From the NCBI GenBank assembly GCA_963718915.1, contig CAVRAI010000003.1, forward strand, positions 390,001-422,000: a stretch of DNA of 32,000 bases, given 5' to 3'. The notes under the pieces are model-generated. The model had not been told where the DNA came from, made no database searches, and worked only from the letters and a program-made list of their open reading frames with translations. The translations under genes were made by a program, and so were the position numbers. Origin of the DNA: an uncultured Chloroflexia bacterium (GTDB lineage Bacteria; Chloroflexota; Ktedonobacteria; Ktedonobacterales; JADMIN01). Shown here piece after piece: positions 3,516 through 28,987 of this stretch (within the stretch, counting starts at the first letter, position 1; each line of letters starts with the position of its first letter).

Positions 3516-3524
3516 GGCGCTCTA
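3516..3524. repeat. Left copy of the 9-bp direct repeat GGCGCTCTA flanking the low-GC methyltransferase island
   Basis: It is identical to the 9-mer at 5857-5865. It sits 29 bp outside the 3' end of the MTase ORF, where GC content changes. Confidence 0.5.
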
Positions 3525-3552
3525 AAGCAGGAGGTCCAAGTCTCTTGTGAGG

Positions 3553-5757
3553 TTAGTTTTCTGGGCTTTCCCCATACCTCTTAAGGTCATCCGTCGAAAG
3601 CGCATCGGATGGTACCAGAAGATAGTGCCTCTCAGCAACTATTTCCAACTGGTCGTCGTGCATCTCAAACGCTTTCAAGGCGATAACGTCATGCTGCATG
3701 AATTGCACTGCGATGGCGCGAGCGATGAGGTTGGGATAACGTTCTCTACACAAAGCGAGATCTTGTTCTATCTGTGAACGTCCCAGCCTGTCTCTACCGC
3801 CCTTTGCCTGGACAGGAAACACATAGTGTGTGCCGCGCTTGTCGACGCCAACATATATCTCATCGGTCTCTACCTGCCCAATATTTGGCACGGTGGTGCG
3901 TAGATGATTTTGCAGGGAGTAACAGGTCACCCCTGTGAACGTATCAACCAATCGGTTATACCGAACCTTTACTAATAATCCCTGTTCATCTGTCTGGGCA
4001 TACATTTTTACAATGCCAGGGGTAGCATCTGGGATTTTTATTTGGGCCATACCTCGGGTTGGCGCCAGGTCAACCGTATCAGTCAGGACGAAGCGATACT
4101 GTGAACGCCCAATGGAGCGGATAATCCACTCTTTACCTTCTGGTGCGGTAGGCAGAATGCGCTCAGGCAATGGTTGTCGGAAGCGAAAACTATAGGGAAT
4201 GTCGCCCAGGTTGAGCGGCGTAGTTATGCCAAGCTGCCTGGCGGCGCTGGCTAACTCTTCTCGCTTGAAATCCACTTCCAGGCCGCCTGGCTGATAGTGG
4301 GCGAAAAAGATGGTTTCCATGATCTGCTGGTAACGGTTAGCAGTGAGATGTACGTCATGAGAGTCGGTCATAATAGGATTCCCTTCAGGTAACATTTGAG
4401 AGCCAAGTGGAAGAAAAGCATACCGCCGAGCCAGCTCTTCGGCGTCGGGAGCAAAGCGGAAAAGCACTACCTCTTCATTTAACTGCGCCTTGGTTGCGGT
4501 AGCCAGGCGAGTGCGAAACAGGTCTGTTCCCAACCATTCATAACCTAGCATTGTGCCGATTTCACTGAGTAGTTGTCCTGTCCGTATCATGACCTGAAGG
4601 TAGGATGCTTGATCTCCTACCACATACGCCAGGTAAGCCCCTGGACGGAGAATGGCTCGAAGCTGGGAAAGGTGGCGCGCCATGCCTCCGAAATAATGGC
4701 GTGTCACGGCTGGATATAGGCGCTCGAACCCTGATGTCTTGCCACGCCGTACACGCTCGCTTTCAATGGCATCAGCGATACTTTGGATTTCTTGATGAGC
4801 AGCGACGTCCCAGTCATCGTCATCACCTTTGTAGACATTACGAGTATTGGAACGAAGCAAGTTCTGCTTGAGCGCCCGCAGGTCGGCCTTCGACTGTATG
4901 AAGCCGAGCAACACGGACTCCAATCGAGTCGTTCTCGTATAGTCTTTCTCATTTGGATAAGGAGGAGACGTGAAAACTACATCAACCGATGCAGATGGAA
5001 GCAGTGTCAACATCTGGCGGGAGTCGCCCTGAAAGACCCTGGATGGCGTATCAACATGGGCGCCCAGGCTGCGCAGGTCGCTTACCATGCCCTGGATATT
5101 CCCAAGCCATGGTGAAATAACCGCCGCATCTGGTCTGGGCTGTCCGACACCTACTTCTGGCCCGAAACGGAGATTACTGCTCGAAAACACAAGCGCCTTG
5201 GCAAAGGCCAATCTTTCATGCGCATAGTATCGCTCGTCTCGATGATGTTCCATGCACTCTAAGAGCACAAGCGCTTTATGGAGCGGTAGTGGGCTTATGG
5301 AGCCATCGAGGAGTAGTGCCATAAGCTCGTCTGGCAGCGTGCGAATTTCTGGATCACCGTCATATCTGCCCCCAAAAAGTGGGGCATCCTCTATGCCATC
5401 ATCCGCAAGCCTCCTGAGCGCATCAGATGCTATCAGATGTGCGTGTTCCATGAGTCCGTCAGGAGATGGCGACCAATCGACCTTGGTATGGCTGGCGAAA
5501 TAAGCTACAGGGTTCGCCTCAATACCAATGCTTGGAATGCCAAGCTTCTTACATTCAGCTAACACCGTTCCGGTACCGCAAAACGGATCGAGTACGCAGC
5601 GTGTACTGTCGATGTTCCAGCGTGTAAGATAGTCACGGACAAGGTGTGGAGGAAATGACAGGACAAAGCGATACCACTCGTGGATGCTTCGATCCTCGGG
5701 GTAAACTCTATTGATCTCGCTGTTCACATTGCGTTTGCGTGCTGTTGTGTAGCTCAT
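3553..5757 (-). CDS. DNA methyltransferase (N6A/N4C amino-MTase) fused to a C-terminal PD-(D/E)xK-like putative endonuclease domain
   Basis: 734-aa ORF in a markedly AT-richer segment. SAM motif I is VLDPFCGTGTVLAEC (about 5563-5590). Catalytic motif IV is VVFTSPPYPNE (SPPY at 4957-4968), about 210 aa after motif I, which is an alpha-like order. The C-terminal ~270 aa contain ETDEIYVGVD-x12-VQAKGG (about 3795-3875), which resembles a nuclease core. Confidence 0.8.
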   Translation of the reverse strand: MSYTTARKRNVNSEINRVYPEDRSIHEWYRFVLSFPPHLVRDYLTRWNIDSTRCVLDPFCGTGTVLAECKKLGIPSIGIEANPVAYFASHTKVDWSPSPDGLMEHAHLIASDALRRLADDGIEDAPLFGGRYDGDPEIRTLPDELMALLLDGSISPLPLHKALVLLECMEHHRDERYYAHERLAFAKALVFSSSNLRFGPEVGVGQPRPDAAVISPWLGNIQGMVSDLRSLGAHVDTPSRVFQGDSRQMLTLLPSASVDVVFTSPPYPNEKDYTRTTRLESVLLGFIQSKADLRALKQNLLRSNTRNVYKGDDDDWDVAAHQEIQSIADAIESERVRRGKTSGFERLYPAVTRHYFGGMARHLSQLRAILRPGAYLAYVVGDQASYLQVMIRTGQLLSEIGTMLGYEWLGTDLFRTRLATATKAQLNEEVVLFRFAPDAEELARRYAFLPLGSQMLPEGNPIMTDSHDVHLTANRYQQIMETIFFAHYQPGGLEVDFKREELASAARQLGITTPLNLGDIPYSFRFRQPLPERILPTAPEGKEWIIRSIGRSQYRFVLTDTVDLAPTRGMAQIKIPDATPGIVKMYAQTDEQGLLVKVRYNRLVDTFTGVTCYSLQNHLRTTVPNIGQVETDEIYVGVDKRGTHYVFPVQAKGGRDRLGRSQIEQDLALCRERYPNLIARAIAVQFMQHDVIALKAFEMHDDQLEIVAERHYLLVPSDALSTDDLKRYGESPEN

Positions 5758-5820
5758 CGAGAATGCGCCTTGATGACGATTAACCTCATGTGCATGGCAG
5801 TAGACGGCAACAGCAAACCC

Positions 5821-5856
5821 ATAATAGCAGTATAACAGCTTTTATGAAGGTATGAA
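5821..5856 (-). promoter_or_regulatory. Candidate sigma70-type promoters for the MTase gene
   Basis: Two overlapping candidates on the minus strand: TTCATA(5851-5856)-16 nt-TATACT(5829-5834) and TTCATA(5843-5848)-16 nt-TATTAT(5821-5826). They lie 65-100 nt upstream of the ATG at 5757. Confidence 0.3.
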
Positions 5857-5865
5857 GGCGCTCTA
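5857..5865. repeat. Right copy of the 9-bp direct repeat GGCGCTCTA
   Basis: It is identical to 3516-3524. Its last three bases (CTA) are the reverse complement of the TAG stop of the L,D-transpeptidase gene. Confidence 0.5.
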
Positions 5866-6787: not shown

Positions 6788-6862
6788 GCTGCCCAGCTAT
6801 TGAGCCAGCCAGCCAGTGTCAACGATGTACATGTTCGTTTCATCATCCGGCCAGGGGACGCT

Positions 6863-7876
6863 ATGCATAGGGAAATCCGGCTGACACCCATCCTGTTGCT
6901 GGTGCTTGGCGTCACCACAGCGCTCGTGGTGGGGCTGATCCTGTTGCTCTGGACGCTCTTGCCGCCGAATTTGCAATCGGGTCTGCCGTTCGCCATCTCG
7001 ACGGTGGTGGTGGTCAATACCGCACTCTTGCGCGTGATCCCGGTGGTGGGGAAGCGCCTCATCGGTGATGATTCCGCCTCCGCCGCGCTTGCCAAAGCCC
7101 AGGCGCAAGCGCAGCCCCCGCATGTCTCGTATCAGTTGCGCCATGTCGTGGACGTCGCCGCGCCCGTCGCCGCACGCGCCTGCCATCGCTGTGGCCGAGT
7201 CGCACAGCACGGCGATGCGTTCTGCCGTCAGTGTGGCAATGCGCTCACTGCGCCGCCAACTCCCCCGCCCGCCGCCATGCCCCACCCAATCGCTCAACCG
7301 CTGGCTCAACCTGTCGCTCAACCTGTCGCTCAACCTGTCGCTCAACCTGTCGTCCAACCCGCCGTCCAACCCGCCGCCCAACCGCTGGCTCGCCCGCCTG
7401 CCTATTCCGCGCCGTTCGCCGCGGCGTATGCTGGGCCGATTACCTCGGTTGGTGGAACAGTAGCTGTCACGCCGACCGTCCATCGCTTCATGAGCAAACG
7501 CGCGCTCCGCTATCTGCTCTTCATCGGCATCGCCTGCAATATCGTCGCCGTCCTGCTCTACGCGCTCGTCTCGATTATTGTCGCCTCCTGCTCGCCAGAC
7601 GCCGATATTAACGCCTGCTCTTCCTCCCAGACGGGCGTTGTGACCATTCTCATCGTCCTGACGCTGATCGTCTGGGTGCCGGGCTTCGTCCTGGTCTTGC
7701 TGGCTGATGTCTTCGCGCTGATCCGCACCGCGCTGGTTCGTCGCTGGGGCTGGTTCACCGCGATTCTGCTGACATACCTCTTCTGCTGGAATGTAGCGAT
7801 GTTATTCTACGTCTTCATCGGGCCAGATGAGCCGCCCGGCCGCCCGGCCCCAGCCGCGGGCTATCCGCCACACTGA
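6863..7876 (+). CDS. Zinc-ribbon membrane protein with an (A-Q-P-V)n repeat linker
   Basis: Two N-terminal TM helices, a CxxC-x11-CxxC zinc ribbon (CHRCGRVAQHGDAFCRQCG), a tetrapeptide repeat linker, and a C-terminal 4-TM bundle. The track start at 6800 is a TTG. The ATG at 6863 is preferred because it follows AGGGGA and lies downstream of the putative -10. Confidence 0.6.
   Translation: MHREIRLTPILLLVLGVTTALVVGLILLLWTLLPPNLQSGLPFAISTVVVVNTALLRVIPVVGKRLIGDDSASAALAKAQAQAQPPHVSYQLRHVVDVAAPVAARACHRCGRVAQHGDAFCRQCGNALTAPPTPPPAAMPHPIAQPLAQPVAQPVAQPVAQPVVQPAVQPAAQPLARPPAYSAPFAAAYAGPITSVGGTVAVTPTVHRFMSKRALRYLLFIGIACNIVAVLLYALVSIIVASCSPDADINACSSSQTGVVTILIVLTLIVWVPGFVLVLLADVFALIRTALVRRWGWFTAILLTYLFCWNVAMLFYVFIGPDEPPGRPAPAAGYPPH
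7289..7396 (+). repeat. 12-bp in-frame tandem repeat, ~9 units (consensus GTCGCTCAACCT), encoding (xAQP)n
   Basis: Read directly: atcgctcaaccg ctggctcaacct gtcgctcaacct x3 gtcgtccaaccc gccgtccaaccc gccgcccaaccg ctggctcgcccg. Confidence 0.9.
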
Positions 7877-8913: not shown

Positions 8914-10023
8914 ATGAAAATTGGCACCTGCGCCGCGAAGCCCGGCAAGATGACCTTTGGCTCGCTGGAGGTCATGACTCACTTCGATGGCACGCCCGAG
9001 CGCCTGCCGGTGGTGATCGCCGCTGGCCGTCATGATGGCCCCTGCTTCTGGATCACCGGCAACATTCACGGCGACGAGTATGTGGGCCTGCTGGCGGTGC
9101 AGGGCGGCGTGACACGCGCGCTGGCCGACCGGCTGGGCGACCTGCGTGGCACAGTGGTGGCGCTGCCAACGCTCAATCCCGCGGGCCTACGGGTGGGCCG
9201 CCGCGAAGCCTACTACGACCCAGAGACCGACCCCAACCGCACCTTTCCCGACGCCAACCCCTATGCCGACCCCGAGCTGTCTGAGGGCGAGGATGACGAC
9301 ACGCCGACGCCCTACGAGGCGGCGAGCGCCGTCTATTTCGAGCTGATGCGCCAGACGGCCAACTACCATATCGACCTGCACGCGATGTCGATCCAGGCCA
9401 CGCCTTTCACGCTGATAGACCACCTCCTTTACCACGGCGAGGACGACCGCCCGCGTATGGAGAAGCTGGCGCTCCAGATGCATAGCCTGGCGCGCGCTTT
9501 TGGCATCCCGGTCATCAACGAGTTTCCCAGCCGCAAATACATCAAGAACCGCCTGCACCGCTCGACCGGCGGCGCGGCGGGGCATGTGCTGGGCATCCCC
9601 TCGATCACGCCGGAGTTGGGGATGGGCGGAGATGTCGAGCCGAAGGCCTTGCGGGCAGGTATCGCGGGTATCCATAATGCGCTGGTCTGGGCGGAGATGC
9701 TGCCCGACGACCCTATCGCCATCGACTGGATTCCCCAGCCTGATCTGGGCTATCCGGTGCGGCGCGAACCACATCCACGCCCGGCGGTGACGGGCATCGC
9801 GGCGAAGCTGGTGACGCCGGGCGACGTTGTGCGCGCGGGCGATCCGGTCGCCGAACTGCGCGATATCTGGGGGCGGTCGCTCGGCGACGATGGCTATCTG
9901 CGCACCGAGAAAGATGGCTGGGTGCTCAACCTGCGTCCCGGCGTCGGCGTCTATCCCAACCGCGCCATCATGGATCTCGCCGTGCGTGACGACGATCCAC
10001 TGGCGCTGCCCTGGCCGCGGTAG
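8914..10023 (+). CDS. Succinylglutamate desuccinylase/aspartoacylase-family (M14-like) zinc hydrolase
   Basis: AstE/AspA-family N-terminal motif (PCFWITGNIHGDEYVG), followed by LNP.G......R......D.NR.FP and a later H(D)LH motif (YHIDLHAM). Confidence 0.7.
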   Translation: MKIGTCAAKPGKMTFGSLEVMTHFDGTPERLPVVIAAGRHDGPCFWITGNIHGDEYVGLLAVQGGVTRALADRLGDLRGTVVALPTLNPAGLRVGRREAYYDPETDPNRTFPDANPYADPELSEGEDDDTPTPYEAASAVYFELMRQTANYHIDLHAMSIQATPFTLIDHLLYHGEDDRPRMEKLALQMHSLARAFGIPVINEFPSRKYIKNRLHRSTGGAAGHVLGIPSITPELGMGGDVEPKALRAGIAGIHNALVWAEMLPDDPIAIDWIPQPDLGYPVRREPHPRPAVTGIAAKLVTPGDVVRAGDPVAELRDIWGRSLGDDGYLRTEKDGWVLNLRPGVGVYPNRAIMDLAVRDDDPLALPWPR

Positions 10024-10038
10024 ACCAGTTCTCTCCTC

Positions 10039-10054
10039 CGTTTCATGTGAAACG
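10039..10054. promoter_or_regulatory. Perfect 16-bp palindrome CGTTTCATGTGAAACG (possible operator)
   Basis: 7-bp arms with a 2-nt centre, which is too tight for an RNA hairpin. It lies between the hydrolase stop (10023) and the MFS promoter. Confidence 0.3.
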
Positions 10055-10154
10055 AATAACTCTGGACGTATATCATGGCTCGGCTGCCATCTGTCGGTGG
10101 TCGGGCAACCTCTTGCACGCTCCCGGCCTATCGCGAAACACTTTATAGGTAACG

Positions 10155-10183
10155 TTGACGTGAACGGCAAGGTATGATACAGT
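10155..10183 (+). promoter_or_regulatory. Candidate sigma70-type promoter of the MFS transporter gene
   Basis: TTGACG(10155-10160)-17 nt-TACAGT(10178-10183). A 7-bp stem hairpin (10194-10216) lies in the predicted leader. Confidence 0.4.
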
Positions 10184-10237
10184 CTGTGGCAACCGATACT
10201 GAAAGCAGGAGTATCGAATGCGGCCATAGCGATCAGC

Positions 10238-12073
10238 ATGGCCCAAAGACACAGGAGGAGATGTGGCGCCGTGTCGGCGAATCCTTCCACGCAGCATCCA
10301 CAACCTGCTTTGCCTCGTCTGGCAGAGCGCCGCGGAAAACGGACTCAACGCCCCGTTGGGCCAAACTACAAATGGATCGCGCTGACCAACACGACGCTTG
10401 GCGCACTGATGGCTACCATCGACGCCAGCATCGTGCTCATTGCCCTGCCAGCGATCTTCAAAGGGATTGGCATCAATCCGCTGGCTCCCGGTGAATCCAG
10501 CTACTTCCTCTGGCTGCTGCTCGGCTATATGGTCGTCACGGCGACGTTGCTTGTCACCTTCGGGCGCATCTCCGACATGTTCGGGCGCGTCCGGCTCTAT
10601 AATCTCGGCTTTGCCATTTTCACCGTTGGCAGCATCCTGCTGGCGTTCACACCGGGTACAGGCAACACTGGCGCCCTCGAACTCATTATCTTCAGACTGA
10701 TTCAAGGCGTCGGTTCGGGATTCCTGCTCTCCAACAGCGCGGCCATTCTGACGGACGCTTTCCCCGCGAATCAGCGCGGGCGGGCGCTGGGCATCAATCA
10801 GATTGCCGCGATTGCTGGCTCATTCATCGGTCTGATTCTTGGCGGTGTTCTGGCCGCGATTGACTGGCGTCTCGTCTTCCTGGTGAGCGTGCCGGTTGGC
10901 CTCGCCGGAACGATCTGGGCCTATACGATGCTGCGCGAGACGGCGACGATTCGCGGGAAACAGAAAATTGACTGGCTTGGCAACATCACTTTCGCGGTCG
11001 GTCTGACGGTGCTGCTGCTCAGCATCACCTATGGTATCGAGCCGTACGGTGATTCGCCGATGGGCTGGGGCAATCCCCTGGTGATTGGTGGCATCGTGCT
11101 CGGCGTTCTTATGCTAGCCACTTTTATCTGGATCGAACTGCATGTCGCCGAAGATCCGATGTTCCGGCTGGATCTCTTCAAGATCCGCATGTTCGCTGCG
11201 GGCAACATCAGTGGTTTTCTGTCGGCGTTGAGCCGCGGAGGCCTGCAATTCATGCTCGTCATCTGGTTGCAAGGTATCTGGCTACCACTCCATGGCTACA
11301 GCTTTGCGGAGACACCGCTCTGGGCAGGCATCTATATGACGCCGCTGCTCCTCGGCTTCATCGTTATGGGGCCGATCAGCGGCTATCTCTCGGATCGCTT
11401 CGGCGCCCGCGTCTTCTCGACGACGGGTCTGCTCGTACAGGCCGCTGGCTTTCTTGGGCTGACATTCTTACCAGCGAACTTCAATTACCCTGTCTTCGCC
11501 ATCTTACTCTTCATTCTTGGATGTGGCTCTGGCCTCTTCGCGTCACCAAACACCAGTTCCATCATGAGCAGCGTCCCGCCGGAGACACGCGGTGTGGCGT
11601 CTGGCATGCGGGCAACGTTCCAGAATGGCGCGTCGCTCGTGAGTATTGGCTTCTTCTTTAGCATCGTCACGGTTGGCCTCGTCGCGGCGCTCCCTTCGAC
11701 ATTCTTCAACGGGCTGACGAAATATGGTGTGCCAGCCAGCACCGCGTCGCAGATCGCGCACCTGCCGCCAACTGCCGCGCTCTTCGGCGCCTTCCTGGGA
11801 TACAACCCTATCGCACAGTTGTTGCCGCCTCAGGTGTTGAGCCACATCTCACCAGCCAACCAGGCAACGCTGCTTGGCAAGACATTCTTCCCCAATCTGA
11901 TTTCAGCGCCCTTCATGGATGGGCTGCATGCCGTCTTCTACATCTCCGCCACAATGTGCCTTGTTGGCGCGGGTGTCTCACTCCTGCGCGGCAAAGTGGT
12001 GCAGCACTATGTGGCGGATGTGGCGGATGCGGCGGATGCGCCTGTCGCGTCGGAGGCGACACCGGCCTCCTGA
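10238..12073 (+). CDS. MFS transporter, DHA2 (EmrB/QacA-like, 14-TMS) family
   Basis: 611-aa polytopic ORF with DHA2-type N-terminal motifs (LGALMATIDASIVLIALPAI; GRISDMFGRVRLY; LIQGVGSGFL). The start is uncertain: ATG 10238 or in-frame GTG 10271, the latter downstream of AGGAGG. Confidence 0.8.
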   Translation: MAQRHRRRCGAVSANPSTQHPQPALPRLAERRGKRTQRPVGPNYKWIALTNTTLGALMATIDASIVLIALPAIFKGIGINPLAPGESSYFLWLLLGYMVVTATLLVTFGRISDMFGRVRLYNLGFAIFTVGSILLAFTPGTGNTGALELIIFRLIQGVGSGFLLSNSAAILTDAFPANQRGRALGINQIAAIAGSFIGLILGGVLAAIDWRLVFLVSVPVGLAGTIWAYTMLRETATIRGKQKIDWLGNITFAVGLTVLLLSITYGIEPYGDSPMGWGNPLVIGGIVLGVLMLATFIWIELHVAEDPMFRLDLFKIRMFAAGNISGFLSALSRGGLQFMLVIWLQGIWLPLHGYSFAETPLWAGIYMTPLLLGFIVMGPISGYLSDRFGARVFSTTGLLVQAAGFLGLTFLPANFNYPVFAILLFILGCGSGLFASPNTSSIMSSVPPETRGVASGMRATFQNGASLVSIGFFFSIVTVGLVAALPSTFFNGLTKYGVPASTASQIAHLPPTAALFGAFLGYNPIAQLLPPQVLSHISPANQATLLGKTFFPNLISAPFMDGLHAVFYISATMCLVGAGVSLLRGKVVQHYVADVADAADAPVASEATPAS

Positions 12074-14049: not shown

Positions 14050-14547
14050 ATGGTCAACCTCGTAACCGGCAATCTCTTCGACTCAGAAGCGCAGACGCTG
14101 GTGAACGCCGTGAACTGCGCGGGCGTGATGGGCAAGGGCATCGCGCTGGAGTTCAGACGGCGGTATCCGTCGATGTTCGCGGATTACGTCGCGCGCTGCA
14201 AGAATGGCCGCGTGCGCCTGGGCGAGCCGTATCTCTATCGTGGTGAATCGCTCCCCTGGATTCTCAACTTCCCAACCAAGAATCACTGGCGATCCGCCTC
14301 GAAGCTGGAGGATATCGTCGCCGGGCTGGCATACCTGGAGGCGCACTACCGCGCGTGGGGTATCACATCGCTGGCGGTCCCGGCGCTGGGCTGTGGCGCG
14401 GGCCAGTTCGCATGGGAGGTCGTCGGCCCGGTACTTCGTGACGGGCTTGGCAGACTGGCGATTCCGGTCAAGCTGTACCTGCCAACGGGGGCAGAGCAGA
14501 ACCCGGGATCGAATGAGCGCTATTGCATATCCACACGAGTCAACTGA
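14050..14547 (+). CDS. Stand-alone macrodomain protein, DarG/TARG1-like (ADP-ribose hydrolase family)
   Basis: GNLFDSEAQTLVNAVNCAGVMGKGIALEFRRRYP ... ILNFPTKNHWRSASKLEDI ... LAVPALGCGAGQ closely matches my recollection of the DarG N-terminal macrodomain, including the FPTK(x)HW lysine context. The start is either ATG 14050 or GTG 14032, the latter overlapping the upstream stop. Confidence 0.8.
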   Translation: MVNLVTGNLFDSEAQTLVNAVNCAGVMGKGIALEFRRRYPSMFADYVARCKNGRVRLGEPYLYRGESLPWILNFPTKNHWRSASKLEDIVAGLAYLEAHYRAWGITSLAVPALGCGAGQFAWEVVGPVLRDGLGRLAIPVKLYLPTGAEQNPGSNERYCISTRVN

Positions 14548-15628
14548 GTTTGCCGACCTTGCCTACTCGCTCTGTGAACCAGATCGTATTATGCGGCCCA
14601 CTCGTGATGGCCCAGGGATAACCTTGCGACGTTGGCACAGGGAATTCGGTGACCACGCCAGTGGTGGTGATACGTCCAATCTGGTTTGCCTTTCCTTCGG
14701 TGAACCAGAAAGCTCCATCGGCTCCGGCGATGATCTCATGAGGATCTCCCTGAGTCGGCAGTGGGAATTCGGTGATAATGCCACTGATGGTGATACGTCC
14801 AATTTTGTTCCCGACCTCTTCCGTAAACCAGAGATTCCCGTCCGGGCCTGCTGTGATCGCAATGGGGCCACTCTGAGAGGTAGGGATGGGGAACTCAGTG
14901 ATCGTGCCCTGAGGTGTGATGCGTCCAATTTTGTTCCCGCCGCTGAGTTCGTTTCCCGTGAACGTGCCACTTTCCGTGAACCACAGCGCTCCATCGGGGC
15001 ATTTGGTGATACCAATCGGGTTGCCCCTGGGCGTTGGGATCGGGAATTCGGTGATGGCGCCATTGGTGGTGATGCGTCCGATTTTGTTTGCGCTCGCCTC
15101 CGTGAACCAGAGAGCGTTATCAGGCCCAGCAGCAATCCCAACAGGGTCTGCGTTGGGGGATGGAATGGGAAACTCGGTGATCACACCCTGTGGCGTGATG
15201 CGCCCGATCTTACTGGCGTCGCTCACTGCGGTGAACCAGAGGTTGCCATCAGGCCCAGCCACGATATCAGTGACGAAGGGGTTGGCGTGTGGAGGGGATG
15301 GTATGGAAAACTCCGTGAGGATACCCTCTGGGGTGATACGCCCGATCTTGTAGGGTTTGGACTCCGTGAACCAGAGGTTTCCGTCGGACCCGGTGGTAAT
15401 GCCATAGGAATCGCTGCGAGGTGTCGGAATCTCAAATTCCTGGATGGCGCCGCGCAGTGTCGGGAGTGATTGCTTTGCGGACGGTGTCAATCCTGGATGC
15501 AGGCTTGTCGAGGACGAGCCTGCGCATCCTGCCAGCAACCCGAAGAACAACAGCACACTCAGGCCCAGGGATCGGCGAAAGGAGGAACCCCAGTATTTCA
15601 CAGGGTGATCCAGGCTATGCGCCAGCAT
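14540..15628 (-). CDS. Vgb (streptogramin/virginiamycin B lyase)-like beta-propeller lipoprotein
   Basis: Signal peptide with lipobox (LLAGC). About seven repeats of G(I/P)..G.DGNLWFTE...NKIGRIT..G.ITEFPIPT match the Vgb-family propeller repeat. SD GGGAGG lies upstream of the ATG. Confidence 0.75.
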   Translation of the reverse strand: MLAHSLDHPVKYWGSSFRRSLGLSVLLFFGLLAGCAGSSSTSLHPGLTPSAKQSLPTLRGAIQEFEIPTPRSDSYGITTGSDGNLWFTESKPYKIGRITPEGILTEFSIPSPPHANPFVTDIVAGPDGNLWFTAVSDASKIGRITPQGVITEFPIPSPNADPVGIAAGPDNALWFTEASANKIGRITTNGAITEFPIPTPRGNPIGITKCPDGALWFTESGTFTGNELSGGNKIGRITPQGTITEFPIPTSQSGPIAITAGPDGNLWFTEEVGNKIGRITISGIITEFPLPTQGDPHEIIAGADGAFWFTEGKANQIGRITTTGVVTEFPVPTSQGYPWAITSGPHNTIWFTERVGKVGKLS

Positions 15629-15851
15629 ATACTACCTCCCACCCCTGAGGGGCAACACAGCCTGATCGGATACAAACCGGATCACGGGTCATCGGTGTGT
15701 CATGAGGCAACCGAGAGAAAATCCGCATCTGATTGTAAACGTTTCTTCCAAATATGTAGTAGGCAGATACCCTGGGCTAGCGCTATCCATTTGGCGCACT
15801 GCCGACTATGCGCCACAGAGATCCTGGCAACATGGCAACCGTCCTTGATAT

Positions 15852-15971
15852 TGGAGGATATCGTCGTTGGGCTGTGGTGCGGGCCAACTCGCATGGGAGG
15901 TCGTCGGCCCGGTACTTCAAGAGTCGCTCGGCAGGCTAGAAATCCCGGTCGAACTTTACGCGCCAGTGTGA
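15852..15971 (+). pseudogene. Decayed remnant of a second macrodomain gene (3' end only)
   Basis: It aligns by hand to 14306-14320 plus 14388-14483 of the intact macrodomain gene and shares a perfect 30-nt core (14408-14437 = 15889-15918). A ~65-nt deletion between GGGCTG repeats breaks the frame. The tail reads GCGAGQLAWEVVGPVLQESLGRLEIPVELYAPV*. Confidence 0.7.
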
Positions 15972-16127
15972 AGGTGTCCACCAAATTCTGTGGCGCGCCA
16001 TTTCATCGTCCCTCTGCGTAGCCCCGGTGTATAATGCCGACTGTGATTGGGCGTTGCCCTCAGGCTGCGACATGCATTGTTGTCGCGGGACCAGGTTCCG
16101 ACCAGCCATGAGCCGGAGGAGGCCACG

Positions 16128-22923: not shown

Positions 22924-23159
22924 TAATGGGACTCCTTCTGGGTGTGAGATGAGAGGGAGCAGACCGGATAGATGGATGAACGATGAAAGATGGACGCCCC
23001 CGCTTTTCTGAAAATGTGCCCGGCACAGCGCCCGTACTTTCCGCGGGCATCAGTGTAAAACTGCCAGGCGGCCTACATTGTAGCATAGTATCCTTTGGGA
23101 TGGACAAATTTGCCCAACCTACTCGGTTCGCCTTGCGGGCAGGCTGACCACAACAGCCA

Positions 23160-24416
23160 CTACTTCCTAACCTCGTGGCGTGGAAGCTGCTTGCTCCTGT
23201 CCTGACGCCGGTCCGGCAGTCGCAAGGAAATGGGGCGGAGTTGGAACGCGCTCACGCCCTGGGCTACGACGTGGGGCGCATAGCGCCGTAGAATGTTGTA
23301 ACTTGCATTCACGTCAGCATGGAGCGTTTGGCCGGTACTTGTTATAAACAAGCCTCGCTTGATGCGTTTGCCCAGGTAGTGAGCATGATGCTGGAGAGGT
23401 TCTCCGTCAAGGAAACTACACTTGGAGGTGTGGCTCTCCGCGATGGTCACCACCTGGATGCCCACCAACGCTGCCTTGTAGGTCAACATTTCGATGAAGC
23501 GGGCGTGCGGAATGAAGACAAACGCCTGATTATTGTGTTTGCCCAGGTTCACCTCTTGCTTCCAGCCGACATTCTGACCAATCACCAGCGTGCCAATCCC
23601 CTCACGAACCAGCAGATTGATGATGGCGCGACTGGCAGTATGCAGATACGACTGGATACGGCGGTGACGAACATCTGTCATCTCCTCCAAGGCACGGGAG
23701 GTAAACTGCTCCTTTGGCAACCGCGCTTGTGCCTTGGCTCGTCGCTTATGATAGGATTGGTTACAACTCTTGAGCGGGCGACCGTTAACAAGAAGCGGCG
23801 TGAAGCCAGGCTTGTTTGAAGTTATCGCGGCCAAGACGTTGACACCAATATCTACGCTGGCGATGAGCGTCGGATCAACCGCTTGTGGCTCAGGTTCCCG
23901 CTCGTAGATGACTTCGACCATGTAATGGGTGGCTTTCGGCACGAGACGCACCTGCGCCATTGCGGCATGAGTGTGCTTGGTAGCGACGCGGATCGCGACG
24001 CCAGAGGGTACGACCCAGCCGACGTTCTTCAGGTCACGACTGATGGCTTGGCTGGTGTAGACCAGAAGATTGCGACCGTGTTTGGGCAGGTACTTGGGCA
24101 GTTTGGGATGCCCTTTGAACTTTTCGGGGTGTGCTTGCCATTCAGCGACTGCGGCGAAGTAGCTATCCCAGGCGGTGCACACTTGTTTCAGCACCCACTG
24201 GGCGACTTTGGCGGGTAATCCCCGATACTCTACCGTGGACTGCATCTGTTTGTCCAAGTCGGCATAGCGAATGACCCGCTGGTTCTCATGGATGTAGGCC
24301 TGGCGCTTGATATAGAGGGCGGCATTGTAGAGATGTTTACTCGCAAACGTCACCTGGTCAATCGCGCCGAAGCGCGGATCGTGGTGGTCAATGCGATGCT
24401 GTTCTACTAGTTGCAT
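23160..24416 (-). CDS. tnpB: TnpB (IS605 OrfB-family RNA-guided endonuclease)
   Basis: The N-terminus is typical of this clade (MQLVEQHRIDHHDPRF...LYNAALY). A RuvC-I-like motif (IASVDIGVN) is present. The C-terminus reads ESHTSKCSFLDGEPL...GLFITSTGQTLHADVNASYNILRR. The ATG at 24416 follows GAGGAAG, while the track start at 24443 is a TTG. Confidence 0.85.
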   Translation of the reverse strand: MQLVEQHRIDHHDPRFGAIDQVTFASKHLYNAALYIKRQAYIHENQRVIRYADLDKQMQSTVEYRGLPAKVAQWVLKQVCTAWDSYFAAVAEWQAHPEKFKGHPKLPKYLPKHGRNLLVYTSQAISRDLKNVGWVVPSGVAIRVATKHTHAAMAQVRLVPKATHYMVEVIYEREPEPQAVDPTLIASVDIGVNVLAAITSNKPGFTPLLVNGRPLKSCNQSYHKRRAKAQARLPKEQFTSRALEEMTDVRHRRIQSYLHTASRAIINLLVREGIGTLVIGQNVGWKQEVNLGKHNNQAFVFIPHARFIEMLTYKAALVGIQVVTIAESHTSKCSFLDGEPLQHHAHYLGKRIKRGLFITSTGQTLHADVNASYNILRRYAPHVVAQGVSAFQLRPISLRLPDRRQDRSKQLPRHEVRK

Positions 24417-24502
24417 GAATCGCTTCCTCGCGTTTCTGGCCAAGAGACTAGCATTATTTCGATATATCTGTCAGCAGTTGGCTATATCTAACGATAGCGT
24501 TT

Positions 24503-26863: not shown

Positions 26864-28336
26864 ATGCAACGGTTTCATCAACAGTTCGCTGATGGAGCGC
26901 AATTCGGCCATGGAAGCGCGGCGTTTCGGTCAGACGCTACCGCGTCGAATGGCGCTCGCGAGTACGCCGAATCATGGGAAAAGTCGTGGTCCCGCGACGC
27001 CGCGCCATCGGCATCCTCGGCGGCAACCGCCTGGTGGATGGCCACCGACGAGGGCTACACGTTGCTCCAGCGACTGGCGCTGGCGCATCTGCTCGTGGGG
27101 GTCTGCGTCGCGCTCGCGCTCGCCTGGCAGGTCTGGAGCGCATCCGGCCCAGTGCAGACACCAGCGATTGGGCTGATTGTCGCGGCTGGCGGCGCGCTGG
27201 CGCTGTTGTGCTCCCGGCAGAATCGCCCGACGCTGCTGCTGTTGGCGCGACTGGCGCTGGTGGTGGTTGATATGAGCGCTGCTGGTGGTATACTCTTGTT
27301 GCGTGGAGGCGAAGGCTGGACTCTTCTGGTTTTCCTGCCCGCAATCGCGCTGGCGATAGCATTCTTTGCCGAGCGAGGTGGCGCCCTGGCAACGGTGCTG
27401 GCCGCACTCATCATCGTCGCGATGAACAGCCTGAGAGATGGACCACTCTCAGGATGGATGCCTTCTCTGCTCGTTTTTCTTGGCGCGTCGGCGTTGATCG
27501 TCGCCTTTCTGGGTATTTATAGCGCCCACATCACCGAGACCAGCGAGAATCTGCGCTGGTTGCTCTCGGATGTGCGGGCGAGCAACGAACGTCTGCGCGA
27601 GACCCGCCAGATGGCGCTCATGCGGTTGCATGCCGCCGAGCAGGCGCAGGAACCACTCCTCCGCGAGCGTGCGCGGCTCGGAGACGCCGCCGCTGAACTG
27701 GCGATGCTGACCCAACGGTTGGCCCAGGGCGATCCCTCCGCCATGCAGGCAGTGCAGGCGCTACGTCCAGGCGCGTATGGGCCGCTGGCCGAGCTGGCGA
27801 GCGCGCTCTCACGCTATGCGCGTGTCTCCGCCAGTAGCCGGAATCCATCTGCGGTGACGGCAGTAACGGCGCTTGAGATGCCGATCCGCACGCAGGGTCA
27901 GGCGCTCGCAATGCTCGATACGGTAGCGCGCTCGCTGTGTGTTGGCGCGAATGAGCTGGTGCTTGAGGCGGAAGCGTTGGAGCCTGGTGTCAGCCTGATT
28001 GGCTCAGGGCAATATACCCAGACGCTCTGGCAGTTGGAGCAGCATCTGCGAGCGCAGGCTGCCCACATGGCGTTGCTGGGCACGCAACTTGCCGAAATCA
28101 GAACCTCGCAGGAGAATCTGGAGGCAGTGGTGACACGGATGGCGGTGGGCGCAAAGACGCCAACCAGCTTCGCCACCAGTGATGTTCGGGCAGTGAGTCT
28201 CTATTCTGGCCCACAGGTCACCTTTGGCGCATCGGCCATCAGGCGCGCCGCCATTGGCCATCCGAGCGAGGATGAGACAGTTCGGTGGGGAAACTGGCAA
28301 AACCCGCCGTCTATAACGTACAATAGGGGTGTCTGA
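26864..28336 (+). CDS. Polytopic membrane protein with a long C-terminal helical/HAMP-like region; function unknown
   Basis: About 5-6 TM helices in aa 70-250, then a coiled-coil-like segment with a HAMP-like stretch (LTQRLAQGDPSAMQAVQALRPGAYGPLAELASALSRY). I see no kinase, MCP or cyclase output domain. The ATG at 26864 follows GGAGGTGGAGG. Confidence 0.55.
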   Translation: MQRFHQQFADGAQFGHGSAAFRSDATASNGAREYAESWEKSWSRDAAPSASSAATAWWMATDEGYTLLQRLALAHLLVGVCVALALAWQVWSASGPVQTPAIGLIVAAGGALALLCSRQNRPTLLLLARLALVVVDMSAAGGILLLRGGEGWTLLVFLPAIALAIAFFAERGGALATVLAALIIVAMNSLRDGPLSGWMPSLLVFLGASALIVAFLGIYSAHITETSENLRWLLSDVRASNERLRETRQMALMRLHAAEQAQEPLLRERARLGDAAAELAMLTQRLAQGDPSAMQAVQALRPGAYGPLAELASALSRYARVSASSRNPSAVTAVTALEMPIRTQGQALAMLDTVARSLCVGANELVLEAEALEPGVSLIGSGQYTQTLWQLEQHLRAQAAHMALLGTQLAEIRTSQENLEAVVTRMAVGAKTPTSFATSDVRAVSLYSGPQVTFGASAIRRAAIGHPSEDETVRWGNWQNPPSITYNRGV

Positions 28337-28987
28337 ATACTCATTACTGCGCGTAACACTCTCGCAAACGCACATCTGGGGGCCAGTAGCTCCCTCCAGC
28401 CGGGGACAGCGTGAAACTCTGGCGCGATCTGCCCATCTCGCGCGAGACCTTCCTCTCGCTGAAGCATTGTGCAATTCTGTAGCTTTCGCGCTCACGACTG
28501 TGCCACCTGACGGATATTGACGCGCATCCACCGCCGCAGGTAGCCCGTTGCGCTGTTCGTAAAAAGCACGCGAGCGAGACACTATCGGCCCGCCAGTTCG
28601 TACCGGATATGTCAGGTATGCTGGGAGCCACGCTGAGGCGCGTGAACAGGTGAAATGTGCGAATCGTAGCTGTCTCGCACCTGGTCTCTCTACTGGCTGT
28701 GCCTTGCTCTCACTGGCCCACCATGCGGCACGTACAACACGGACACATGCCGCTGAATGTTGGAAATGTGCTGTGAAATCTCGAAACATGTTGCTTCGCA
28801 CACTCACAAGCATCAAAGAACCCTTGAATTGCACGCTGGTTCGTGCTTCACACGAGGCGCTGGCGTTGCGTTTGACATGACAATTGTTCGCTTTACATGC
28901 TTCAGATGTTCGGAGAGATCAGGGTGATGGTGGCTGAAAATAATCCACCTTTGCGTTGATGCTTGCTCCACTGCTCAGGAGGCCTTT

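What the first reader, a model, noticed from the sequence alone, without database searches (positions are those of the whole stretch)
3553..5757. Orphan methyltransferase fused to a C-terminal PD-(D/E)xK-like domain: candidate single-chain R-M or new defence enzyme
The N-terminal ~450 aa form an amino-methyltransferase. Motif I is DPFCGTGT, and motif IV is TSPPY about 210 aa later. That order is alpha-like, with the target-recognition region between the motifs. SPPY is more typical of N4-cytosine than N6-adenine enzymes. The C-terminal ~270 aa have no MTase motifs. They contain ETDEIYVGVD-x12-VQAKGG, which fits the (P)D...(D/E/Q)xK nuclease core. The best-known Type IIG/IIL fusions (MmeI-like) place the nuclease N-terminal to the MTase, so the order here differs from those. 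No partner REase, specificity subunit, helicase or controller gene is adjacent. Together with the foreign composition, this makes the gene the best candidate in the window for an uncharacterised defence module.
Basis: partly seen in the sequence, partly recalled or inferred. Interest (0 to 1): 0.7.

Follow-up and report, generated by a model that had tools for sequence, protein, structure and literature searches.

The report
Fused single-gene restriction-modification enzyme island
This gene is an ordinary two-gene bacterial restriction-modification system (a DNA methylase followed by its DNA-cutting partner) whose two genes have merged into one protein, carried on a 2.3-kb single-gene insertion; it is a known kind of phage defence, not a new one.

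Summary
The ORF is real: minus strand, 3553-5757, 734 aa. The motifs and the low GC content are as described. It is not an orphan methylase or a new defence enzyme. Residues ~34-444 are an amino-methyltransferase (SPPY, probably m4C). Residues ~474-731 match a catalogued Type II restriction-endonuclease profile end to end (PADLOC REase_II, E=8e-112). Homologues of that domain are mostly free-standing ~265-aa proteins. They are encoded directly downstream of a methylase gene, either the same amino-MTase or a C5-cytosine MTase (with Vsr in two contexts). In split operons the M stop and R start overlap (GTGA), so a one-base frame change fuses them. Trees need ~15 fused/split switches. The nuclease residues are conserved and both domains are under purifying selection. 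Related Ktedonobacterales contigs show the empty site: the gene sits alone on a 2,341-bp insertion flanked by a 9-bp direct repeat. By nomenclature it is a Type IIC R-M enzyme with methylase-then-nuclease order, as in BtgZI. It is a new member of a known kind, of modest interest.

The parts
3516..5856 (-). Inserted island of 2,341 bp, counting one copy of the 9-bp repeat. It carries only the fused R-M gene and its promoter-like region.
   Evidence: GC drops to ~0.52. Related contigs L095, L096 and L099 have YkuD directly followed by VIT1. Homology to L095 stops at window 5857 and resumes by 3456. Junction alignment A5.
5857..5865 (-). Left copy of the direct repeat TAGAGCGCC. Its TAG is the stop codon of the YkuD gene.
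   Evidence: There are only two copies in the 32-kb window. The empty site in L095/L096 has a single copy. About 6% of shuffles of the border regions share a word of 9 nt or more.
3516..3524 (-). Right copy of the direct repeat TAGAGCGCC. Host-like sequence resumes immediately after it.
5821..5856 (-). Promoter-like sites (TTCATA-16-TATACT and TTCATA-16-TATTAT) inside the island, upstream of the start codon.
   Evidence: Consensus scan only (3 found against 2.4 expected from shuffles). Function not shown.
3553..5757 (-). Fused M::R gene, 734 aa plus stop codon.
4426..5658 (-). Amino-methyltransferase domain, residues ~34-444. Class-I Rossmann fold with helical insertions at ~84-238 and ~268-369.
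   Evidence: PF01555 and PADLOC MTase_II hits. 56% identical to the free-standing 429-aa MTase of L010. AF2 model and Foldseek hits to Trm11, TTHA0409 and M.BseCI.
5566..5589 (-). Motif I, DPFCGTGT (residues 57-64), the AdoMet-binding loop.
   Evidence: Present in 118 of 120 homologues. Aligns to motif I of TTHA0409 and CcrM.
4957..4971 (-). Motif IV, TSPPY (residues 263-267), the catalytic loop.
   Evidence: SPPY is present in 120 of 120 homologues. Aligns to motif IV of TTHA0409 and CcrM.
4339..4425 (-). Inter-domain linker, residues 445-473. Low-confidence and variable.
   Evidence: pLDDT below 50. 55% aa identity to the ortholog against 81-85% in the domains. Linkers in homologues are 13-98 aa long.
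4369..4386 (-). SD-like GAAGGG (4386-4381), a 9-nt spacer, then ATG of M463 (4371-4369). This is the retained start context of the ancestral REase gene and a possible internal initiation site.
   Evidence: M463 aligns with the start Met of free-standing REases. 89 of 96 fused linkers keep a Met, and in 71 it lies 5-14 residues before the REase fold. Similar gaagg contexts occur in L005 and L103. Function is inferred, not shown.
3565..4338 (-). Complete Type II restriction-endonuclease module, residues 474-731.
   Evidence: PADLOC REase_II PDLC03404, E=8e-112, covering profile positions 2-258 of 260. 48-54% identical to free-standing REases. AF2 model with pLDDT 89.
4033..4338 (-). N-terminal subdomain of the REase module, residues ~474-575. 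The H-E-H-H-E-E order is winged-helix-like, and the segment GDxxYSFRYR..LP is conserved. It is probably the DNA-recognition part.
   Evidence: Secondary-structure order in the model. Invariant N516, G518, D519, Y522, R527 and P531. The fold assignment is an inference; it was not searched separately.
3802..3870 (-). Nuclease core, E630-T-D632-E633...D639...Q650-A-K652. A conserved upstream helix carries E591/Q592.
   Evidence: Conservation in 88 diverse members: E630 in 82, D632 in 83, E/D633 in 86, Q/E650 in 79, K/R652 in 83. Weak Foldseek matches to PD-(D/E)xK nucleases.

Best explanation
The gene encodes a self-contained Type II restriction-modification enzyme. It arose by in-frame fusion of a methylase-then-nuclease operon. 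The N-terminal domain is an amino-methyltransferase that protects host DNA; the SPPY motif suggests N4-cytosine. A ~30-aa flexible linker follows. After it comes a complete restriction endonuclease made of a winged-helix-like recognition subdomain and a PD-(D/E)xK-type catalytic subdomain with a QxK variant. This nuclease cuts unmethylated incoming DNA at the same, probably palindromic, cytosine-containing site. Each half has its own DNA-recognition part, unlike MmeI-type enzymes where the two activities share one. The unit needs no partner gene and moved into this Ktedonobacterales chromosome as a 2.3-kb single-gene insertion. Shown here: domain homologies, split-operon ancestry, conservation of catalytic residues, purifying selection on both domains, solitary context and the empty site. 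Inferred: that both activities are present, m4C chemistry, a palindromic target, nuclease dimerisation, and possible extra production of free nuclease from a retained internal start at M463.
For: REase profile match at E=8e-112 over the full profile, plus several MTase_II profiles. Free-standing homologues of the C-terminal domain lie directly downstream of an MTase gene, overlapping it or separated by a few bases. The MTase is C5 on enterobacterial ColE1 plasmids, C5 with Vsr in L011/L012 and Paracoccus p12374, and the same amino-MTase in L010. The fused protein is collinear with the L010 pair, at 56% identity over residues 15-435 and 48% over 477-729. Of the 80 best loci in species-representative genomes, 71-73 are split amino-MTase plus REase pairs and 5-7 are fused. 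Split junctions overlap as GTGA, and the close fused relative P0034 reads straight through. Fitch parsimony gives 14-16 fused/split changes against ~60 in shuffles. Split/fused pairs reach 82%/78% identity while the fused-fused median is 64%. Catalytic-core residues are conserved in 88 diverse members and are intact in the window protein. Against ortholog L103, pN is 0.09-0.13 with saturated pS in both domains, and the nuclease catalytic half is the most constrained. The gene is solitary in four unrelated genomes. An empty site exists in three related contigs. An engineered R::M fusion of Eco29kI keeps both activities (PMC3039593).
Confidence: 0.8

Rival explanations
1. It is a BtgZI-like Type IIS/IIC enzyme. 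The C-terminal domain would be mainly a cleavage module that relies on the methylase's recognition of an asymmetric site and cuts at a distance.
For: [quoted passage not shown] The window protein has the same order and a QxK motif.
Against: The C-terminal module is a full-length homologue of ~265-aa free-standing REases. These work with unrelated C5 MTases, so the module must recognise DNA on its own. It has its own conserved winged-helix-like subdomain. Every operon has a single MTase, which fits a symmetric site rather than an asymmetric one. No BtgZI sequence was available, so homology could not be tested.
Confidence: 0.08
2. It is effectively a solitary methyltransferase. The nuclease domain would be catalytically dead or attenuated and retained as an extra DNA-binding or targeting module, or as a remnant.
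For: A fused gene with no controller could be toxic, so attenuation would be an easy way to tolerate it. The engineered Eco29kI fusion lost two thirds of its nuclease activity. No activity data exist.
Against: E591, E630, D632, E633, Q650 and K652 are all intact in the window protein and conserved family-wide. Between orthologs, the catalytic half of the nuclease is the most constrained part of the protein (pN 0.09, 85% aa identity). Thousands of fused homologues keep the motif.
Confidence: 0.1
3. The long ORF is an artefact. It would really be a two-gene operon joined by a sequencing or assembly frameshift.
For: Most species-representative genomes carry the split form, and a single base change at the GTGA overlap converts one form into the other.
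Against: The identical 734-aa protein is encoded on an independent assembly from another run (L004). The ortholog in L103 is also 734 aa. At least 120 clusters of fused proteins, 706-794 aa long, come from many sources. Fused linkers have diverged to 13-98 aa.
Confidence: 0.02

Closest known systems
Classical two-gene Type II R-M operons of the same family (amino-MTase or C5-MTase followed by a ~265-aa REase), for example on K. pneumoniae plasmid pB1019 and related ColE1 plasmids, and in L010
   Same: Both halves are homologous: MTase 56% and REase 48-54% identical. The gene order is M then R. The nuclease motifs are the same. The systems occur on mobile elements.
   Different: Here the M stop codon is gone and the two proteins are joined by a ~30-aa disordered linker. 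On the plasmids the partner MTase is a C5 enzyme, not an amino-MTase. I could not find the name or recognition site of any characterised prototype.
BtgZI (Type IIC/IIS, GCGATG 10/14), as described in Pingoud, Wilson and Wende 2014 (PMC4081073)
   Same: N-terminal MTase with motif I before IV ('alpha-class'), and a C-terminal PD-(D/E)xK variant in which Q replaces E. This is the reverse of the usual Type IIC order.
   Different: BtgZI recognises an asymmetric site and cuts at a distance. The present nuclease module is a complete free-standing-type REase with its own recognition subdomain and a single MTase partner, which suggests a symmetric site. Sequence homology to BtgZI was not testable here.
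MmeI/Eco57I-type Type IIG/IIC enzymes
   Same: One polypeptide carries both restriction and modification activities, and the gene can be solitary.
   Different: Those enzymes have an N-terminal nuclease, a gamma-class NPPY/F/W adenine MTase, and one shared specificity module. Here the order is reversed, motif IV is SPPY, and each half has its own recognition part.
Engineered RM.Eco29kI fusion (Mokrishcheva et al. 2011, PMC3039593)
   Same: A complete Type IIP REase and its complete MTase are joined in frame from a head-to-tail operon, and both activities are retained. The paper predicted natural Type IIC enzymes of this origin.
   Different: That fusion is R then M, uses a GIY-YIG nuclease and a C5 MTase, and was made in the laboratory. 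The present one is M then R, natural, widespread and evolutionarily maintained.

Membership tests
Type II restriction-modification system | DNA methyltransferase with AdoMet-binding and catalytic motifs | tested here: met
   PF01555 at E=5.7e-10. PADLOC MTase_II profiles down to E=9e-33. DPFCGTG and SPPY are conserved.
Type II restriction-modification system | Cognate restriction endonuclease encoded with the methyltransferase | tested here: met
   Residues 472-728 match REase_II PDLC03404 at E=8e-112 over the full profile. Free-standing homologues always lie next to an MTase gene.
Type II restriction-modification system | Sequence-specific cleavage that is blocked by the cognate methylation | not testable with these tools
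   This needs enzyme assays or methylome data.
Type IIC (R and M activities in one polypeptide) | Nuclease and methyltransferase domains in a single reading frame | tested here: met
   One 734-aa ORF, confirmed on an independent contig and in an ortholog.
Type IIG / MmeI-like | [quoted passage not shown] | tested here: not met
   The order is MTase then nuclease. Motif IV is SPPY. The nuclease module is homologous to autonomous REases.
BtgZI-like Type IIC | N-terminal MTase with motif I before IV, plus a C-terminal PD-QxK nuclease | tested here: met
   Motif I is at residue 57 and motif IV at 263. Q650-x-K652 is conserved as 67 Q and 12 E of 88. This is a match of architecture only.
BtgZI-like Type IIC | Sequence homology to BtgZI; asymmetric site with cleavage at a distance | not testable with these tools
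   No BtgZI sequence was accessible and no cleavage data exist. A single MTase partner argues for a symmetric site (inference).
PD-(D/E)xK nuclease superfamily | Conserved acidic residues plus (D/E/Q)xK on adjacent beta-strands | tested here: met
   E630, D632 and E633 lie on strands 627-638, and Q650-x-K652 at the end of strand 644-652. All are conserved in 88 members.
PD-(D/E)xK nuclease superfamily | The characteristic alpha-beta-beta-beta-alpha-beta fold | tested here: inconclusive
   The top Foldseek hits are PD-(D/E)xK proteins: Cas4-family ACE1 (probability 0.96), SSO0001, EndoMS, and viral PD-(D/E)XK, Cas4, RecB and UL24 proteins. E-values are only 1e-3 to 1e-2 and TM is ~0.2-0.28. There is no Pfam or PDB sequence match, even with a profile.
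N4-cytosine DNA methyltransferase | S-P-P-Y/F in motif IV (established rule of thumb; m6A enzymes usually have D/N-P-P-Y/F/W) | tested here: met
   TSPPY is invariant in 120 homologues. In other operons the alternative partner of the same REase family is a C5-cytosine MTase, so the target contains cytosine.
N4-cytosine DNA methyltransferase | The product is N4-methylcytosine | not testable with these tools
   This needs SMRT/ONT methylome data or biochemical analysis.
Orphan (solitary) methyltransferase | No cognate restriction endonuclease | tested here: not met
   An intact REase module with conserved catalytic residues, under purifying selection, is present in cis.

The most novel reading that the evidence does not exclude
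The fusion may be a selected design rather than a mere accident, giving one gene with two products. The full-length M::R protein would tether a complete, independently recognising nuclease to its methylase. A retained internal ribosome-binding site and start codon (GAAGGG-9 nt-ATG at M463, conserved in position in ~3/4 of otherwise very variable linkers) would also yield free nuclease. The family would toggle repeatedly between split and fused states by one-base changes at the GTGA overlap, as a simple way to retune the restriction-to-modification ratio without a controller protein. This would be a natural, widespread class of Type IIC enzymes with two separate recognition modules, predicted in 2011 but, as far as I could find, not characterised.
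Probability: 0.3. Interest if true: 0.5.

Novelty: new member of a known kind. Interest (0 to 1): 0.3.

Why it matters
The result turns a 'candidate new defence enzyme' into an identifiable Type II R-M unit. For R-M specialists the family has three modest points of interest. First, its REase fold has no Pfam family and no solved relative. Second, it offers a large natural data set of split and fused versions of the same system, which could test how the restriction-to-modification balance is set without a controller protein. Third, it gives a clean example of an R-M gene moving alone, with an empty site and a 9-bp flanking repeat. For genome annotation, thousands of these proteins are currently labelled only 'DNA methyltransferase' or 'hypothetical protein'.

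Full report
OBSERVATION. The window has an ATG-to-stop ORF of 734 aa at 3553-5757 on the minus strand. Motif I (DPFCGTGT) is at residues 57-64 and TSPPY at 263-267. The string ETDEIYVGVD-KRGTHYVFP-VQAKGG is at 630-654. GC is 0.51-0.53 over the gene against 0.63-0.66 on either side. The flanking gaps are 105 bp and 209 bp and hold no plausible small gene. The neighbours are housekeeping-type genes: YkuD L,D-transpeptidase, VIT1/rubrerythrin, CAP, trehalose-phosphatase, MOSC and MFS. The description is therefore correct. Two small corrections apply: the gene is on the minus strand, and the spacing after D639 is 9 residues to V649 (12 residues lie between D639 and K652).

WHAT THE TWO HALVES ARE. 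Pfam sees only the DNA-methylase family PF01555. The match is split in a way that shows a circular permutation relative to beta-class enzymes: the profile's motif-I part hits residues 30-83, and motif IV aligns at 240-276. PADLOC gives several Type II MTase profiles. It also gives, for residues 472-728, a full-length match to a Type II restriction-enzyme profile (PDLC03404, E=8.3e-112, profile positions 2-258 of 260). The C-terminal domain has no Pfam family and no sequence relative in the PDB, even when searched with a 48-member profile.

STRUCTURE MODELS. An AlphaFold model of the C-terminal domain is confident (pLDDT 89, pTM 0.83). It has an N-terminal H-E-H-H-E-E unit, which is winged-helix-like (my inference), followed by a beta-rich catalytic half. 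Foldseek gives only weak matches, but the best named ones are PD-(D/E)xK nucleases. They include Cas4-family ACE1 (probability 0.96), SSO0001, EndoMS and the tRNA-splicing endonuclease in the PDB. In BFVD they include PD-(D/E)XK, Cas4, RecB-family, UL24 and phage-type endonucleases. The full-length model shows two separately folded domains joined by a low-confidence linker at 445-473. The MTase domain is a class-I Rossmann fold with helical insertions after motif II and after motif IV.

RELATIVES: A SPLIT OPERON IS THE COMMON FORM. An exhaustive search with the C-terminal domain finds about 1,100 clusters at 50% identity. Most are free-standing proteins of 240-300 aa. On 4-6 kb ColE1-type plasmids of Klebsiella, Salmonella, E. 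coli and Citrobacter, a 269-aa homologue (54% identical) lies directly downstream of a C5 cytosine methyltransferase gene and overlaps it by 8 bp. One of these plasmids, pB1019, is described in the literature as carrying a restriction-modification system (PMC5864857). In L011/L012 the order is C5-MTase, REase, Vsr. In a Paracoccus plasmid it is HTH, Vsr, C5-MTase, REase.

In L010 a free-standing 429-aa amino-MTase ends one base before a 270-aa REase (TGA-T-ATG). That MTase is 56% identical to window residues 15-435, and the REase is 48% identical to residues 477-729. The window protein is thus collinear with a classical two-gene M-R operon. A scan of one genome per species found the REase domain in at least 551 genomes from more than 20 phyla. 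Of the best 80 loci, 71-73 are split amino-MTase plus REase pairs, 5-7 are fused, one is C5-associated and one is cut by a contig end. The fused form is nevertheless abundant: the 120 best full-length hits are all 706-794 aa. The same REase domain is also found fused behind C5 MTases (P0124, P0129).

FUSION AND FISSION. In split genes L076 and L060 the M stop and the R start overlap as GTGA. In their close fused relative P0034 the M tail runs straight into the R head. Neighbour-joining trees of either domain need 14-16 fused/split changes, against about 60 (minimum 48) after shuffling the labels. The closest split/fused pairs are 82% (REase) and 72-78% (MTase) identical, whereas fused proteins have a median identity to each other of 64%. 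The state is therefore phylogenetically clustered but has switched many times. NJ trees at this divergence are approximate, so the count is rough.

IS THE NUCLEASE LIKELY ACTIVE? Across 88 diverse members the best-conserved positions are E591, Q592, R599, N601, H618, Q628, E630, D632, E/D633, Y635, G637, G642, P648, Q/E650 and K/R652. All of them are intact in the window protein.

L103 carries a 734-aa ortholog (80% identical) directly after the same YkuD gene end. Between the two genes, synonymous sites are saturated (pS 0.70-0.79), while pN is 0.128 in the MTase and 0.104 in the REase. Within the REase, pN is 0.090 in the catalytic half. In the linker it is 0.255. Both domains are therefore under purifying selection, and the nuclease core is the most constrained part.

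MOBILITY. The fused gene is solitary, with different neighbours, in four unrelated genomes. Neighbour proteins place the window in Ktedonobacterales. Three related contigs (L095, L096, L099) have YkuD directly followed by VIT1, with no R-M gene. Homology to L095 runs up to window 5857 and resumes by 3456.

The junction alignment shows a single TAGAGCGCC at the empty site. It starts at the YkuD stop codon. In the window, one copy lies on each side of the low-GC segment, at 5865-5857 and 3524-3516. The insertion is therefore 3516-5856, which is 2,341 bp including one repeat copy. It contains only this gene and promoter-like hexamers (the hexamers are not above chance). On its own the repeat is only suggestive, since about 6% of shuffles share a word of 9 nt or more. 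Its position at both borders and its single copy in the empty site give it weight. A first attempt to find the empty site with a predicted 24-mer produced a chance match (L094), which was discarded.

LINKER AND A POSSIBLE SECOND PRODUCT. Fused linkers are 13-98 aa long (median 32) and variable in sequence. Even so, 89 of 96 keep a Met, and in 71 it lies 5-14 residues before the REase fold, where the free-standing REases start. In the window this is M463 (ATG 4371-4369), preceded by GAAGGG with a 9-nt spacer. L005 and L103 have similar contexts. This may be a vestige, or it may allow internal initiation of free nuclease. That is an inference to be tested.

MECHANISM. The most likely reading (confidence about 0.8) is as follows. 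The MTase domain methylates a cytosine in a short, probably palindromic site; the SPPY motif suggests the N4 position. The tethered REase module recognises the same site through its own recognition subdomain and cleaves unmethylated DNA. A cytosine target is supported by the fact that the alternative partner of this REase family is a C5-cytosine MTase. A symmetric site is suggested by there being only one MTase per system. How the host survives acquisition without a controller is not shown. A plausible inference is that methylation works as a monomer while cleavage needs two nuclease modules. The engineered Eco29kI fusion shows that such fusions are viable but restrict less well (PMC3039593).

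COMPARISON AND NOVELTY. By nomenclature this is a Type IIC enzyme. It is not MmeI-like, because the order, the MTase class and the shared-specificity criterion all fail. [quoted passage not shown] Homology to BtgZI could not be tested, and the autonomous nature of the nuclease module argues for a different mode of action. I could not find the name or recognition site of any characterised member of the REase family. Overall this is a new, uncharacterised member of a known kind of system. Interest is modest, at 0.3.

Noticed in passing
window 3516-3524 and 5857-5865; L095 7840-7850; L096; L099: The R-M gene is a single-gene insertion flanked by the 9-bp direct repeat TAGAGCGCC. The repeat is present once at the empty YkuD-VIT1 junction of related Ktedonobacterales contigs. 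No transposase, integrase or terminal inverted repeat accompanies it.
   Followed up: yes
window 4369-4386 (minus strand); linkers of P0001-P0120; L005, L103: Inside the fused ORF, the ancestral REase start Met and an SD-like GAAGG(G) are retained, although the surrounding linker is highly variable. This may allow internal initiation of a free nuclease.
   Followed up: partly
P0124 (700 aa), P0129 (735 aa): The same REase domain is also fused behind C5-cytosine methyltransferases (PF00145). M-then-R fusion has therefore happened with two unrelated MTase classes.
   Followed up: partly
P0184 (612 aa), P0125 (419 aa), P0132 (412 aa), P0139 (386 aa): Some family members carry N-terminal extensions of 100-360 aa with no Pfam match in front of the REase domain. 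These could be other architectures or mis-called starts.
   Followed up: no
window 6800-7876 (+); L095 5845-7014; L096 3508-4677: Between MOSC and YkuD the related contigs carry an IS605 OrfB/TnpB-type gene (389 aa). At the same place the window has a 358-aa ORF with no Pfam match. That ORF has a zinc-ribbon-like CxxC...CxxC, an AQPV/AQPL repeat run and hydrophobic segments. This is a second point of variation in the neighbourhood.
   Followed up: no
window ~10000-12000, 14500-16000, 23000-24500, 28000-29000: Other stretches have GC of 0.55-0.58 against the ~0.64 background. They may be further acquired segments. AT skew is also extreme (+0.38) at 29000-30000.
   Followed up: no
L008/L009 1-1740: In a Verrucomicrobiota genome, an MmeI/Eco57I-type Type IIG enzyme (PF02384, PF20473, PF07669) lies about 4 kb upstream of the fused M::R gene. 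This suggests a loose clustering of defence genes.
   Followed up: no
L011/L012 (integrase at 256-813; Vsr at 5021-5440); L107 (Paracoccus p12374: HTH 758-1015, Vsr 1189-1647): The C5-MTase versions of the system come with a Vsr very-short-patch repair endonuclease. One sits next to a phage-type integrase, and one has an upstream HTH regulator that could be a controller protein. The amino-MTase versions have neither.
   Followed up: no
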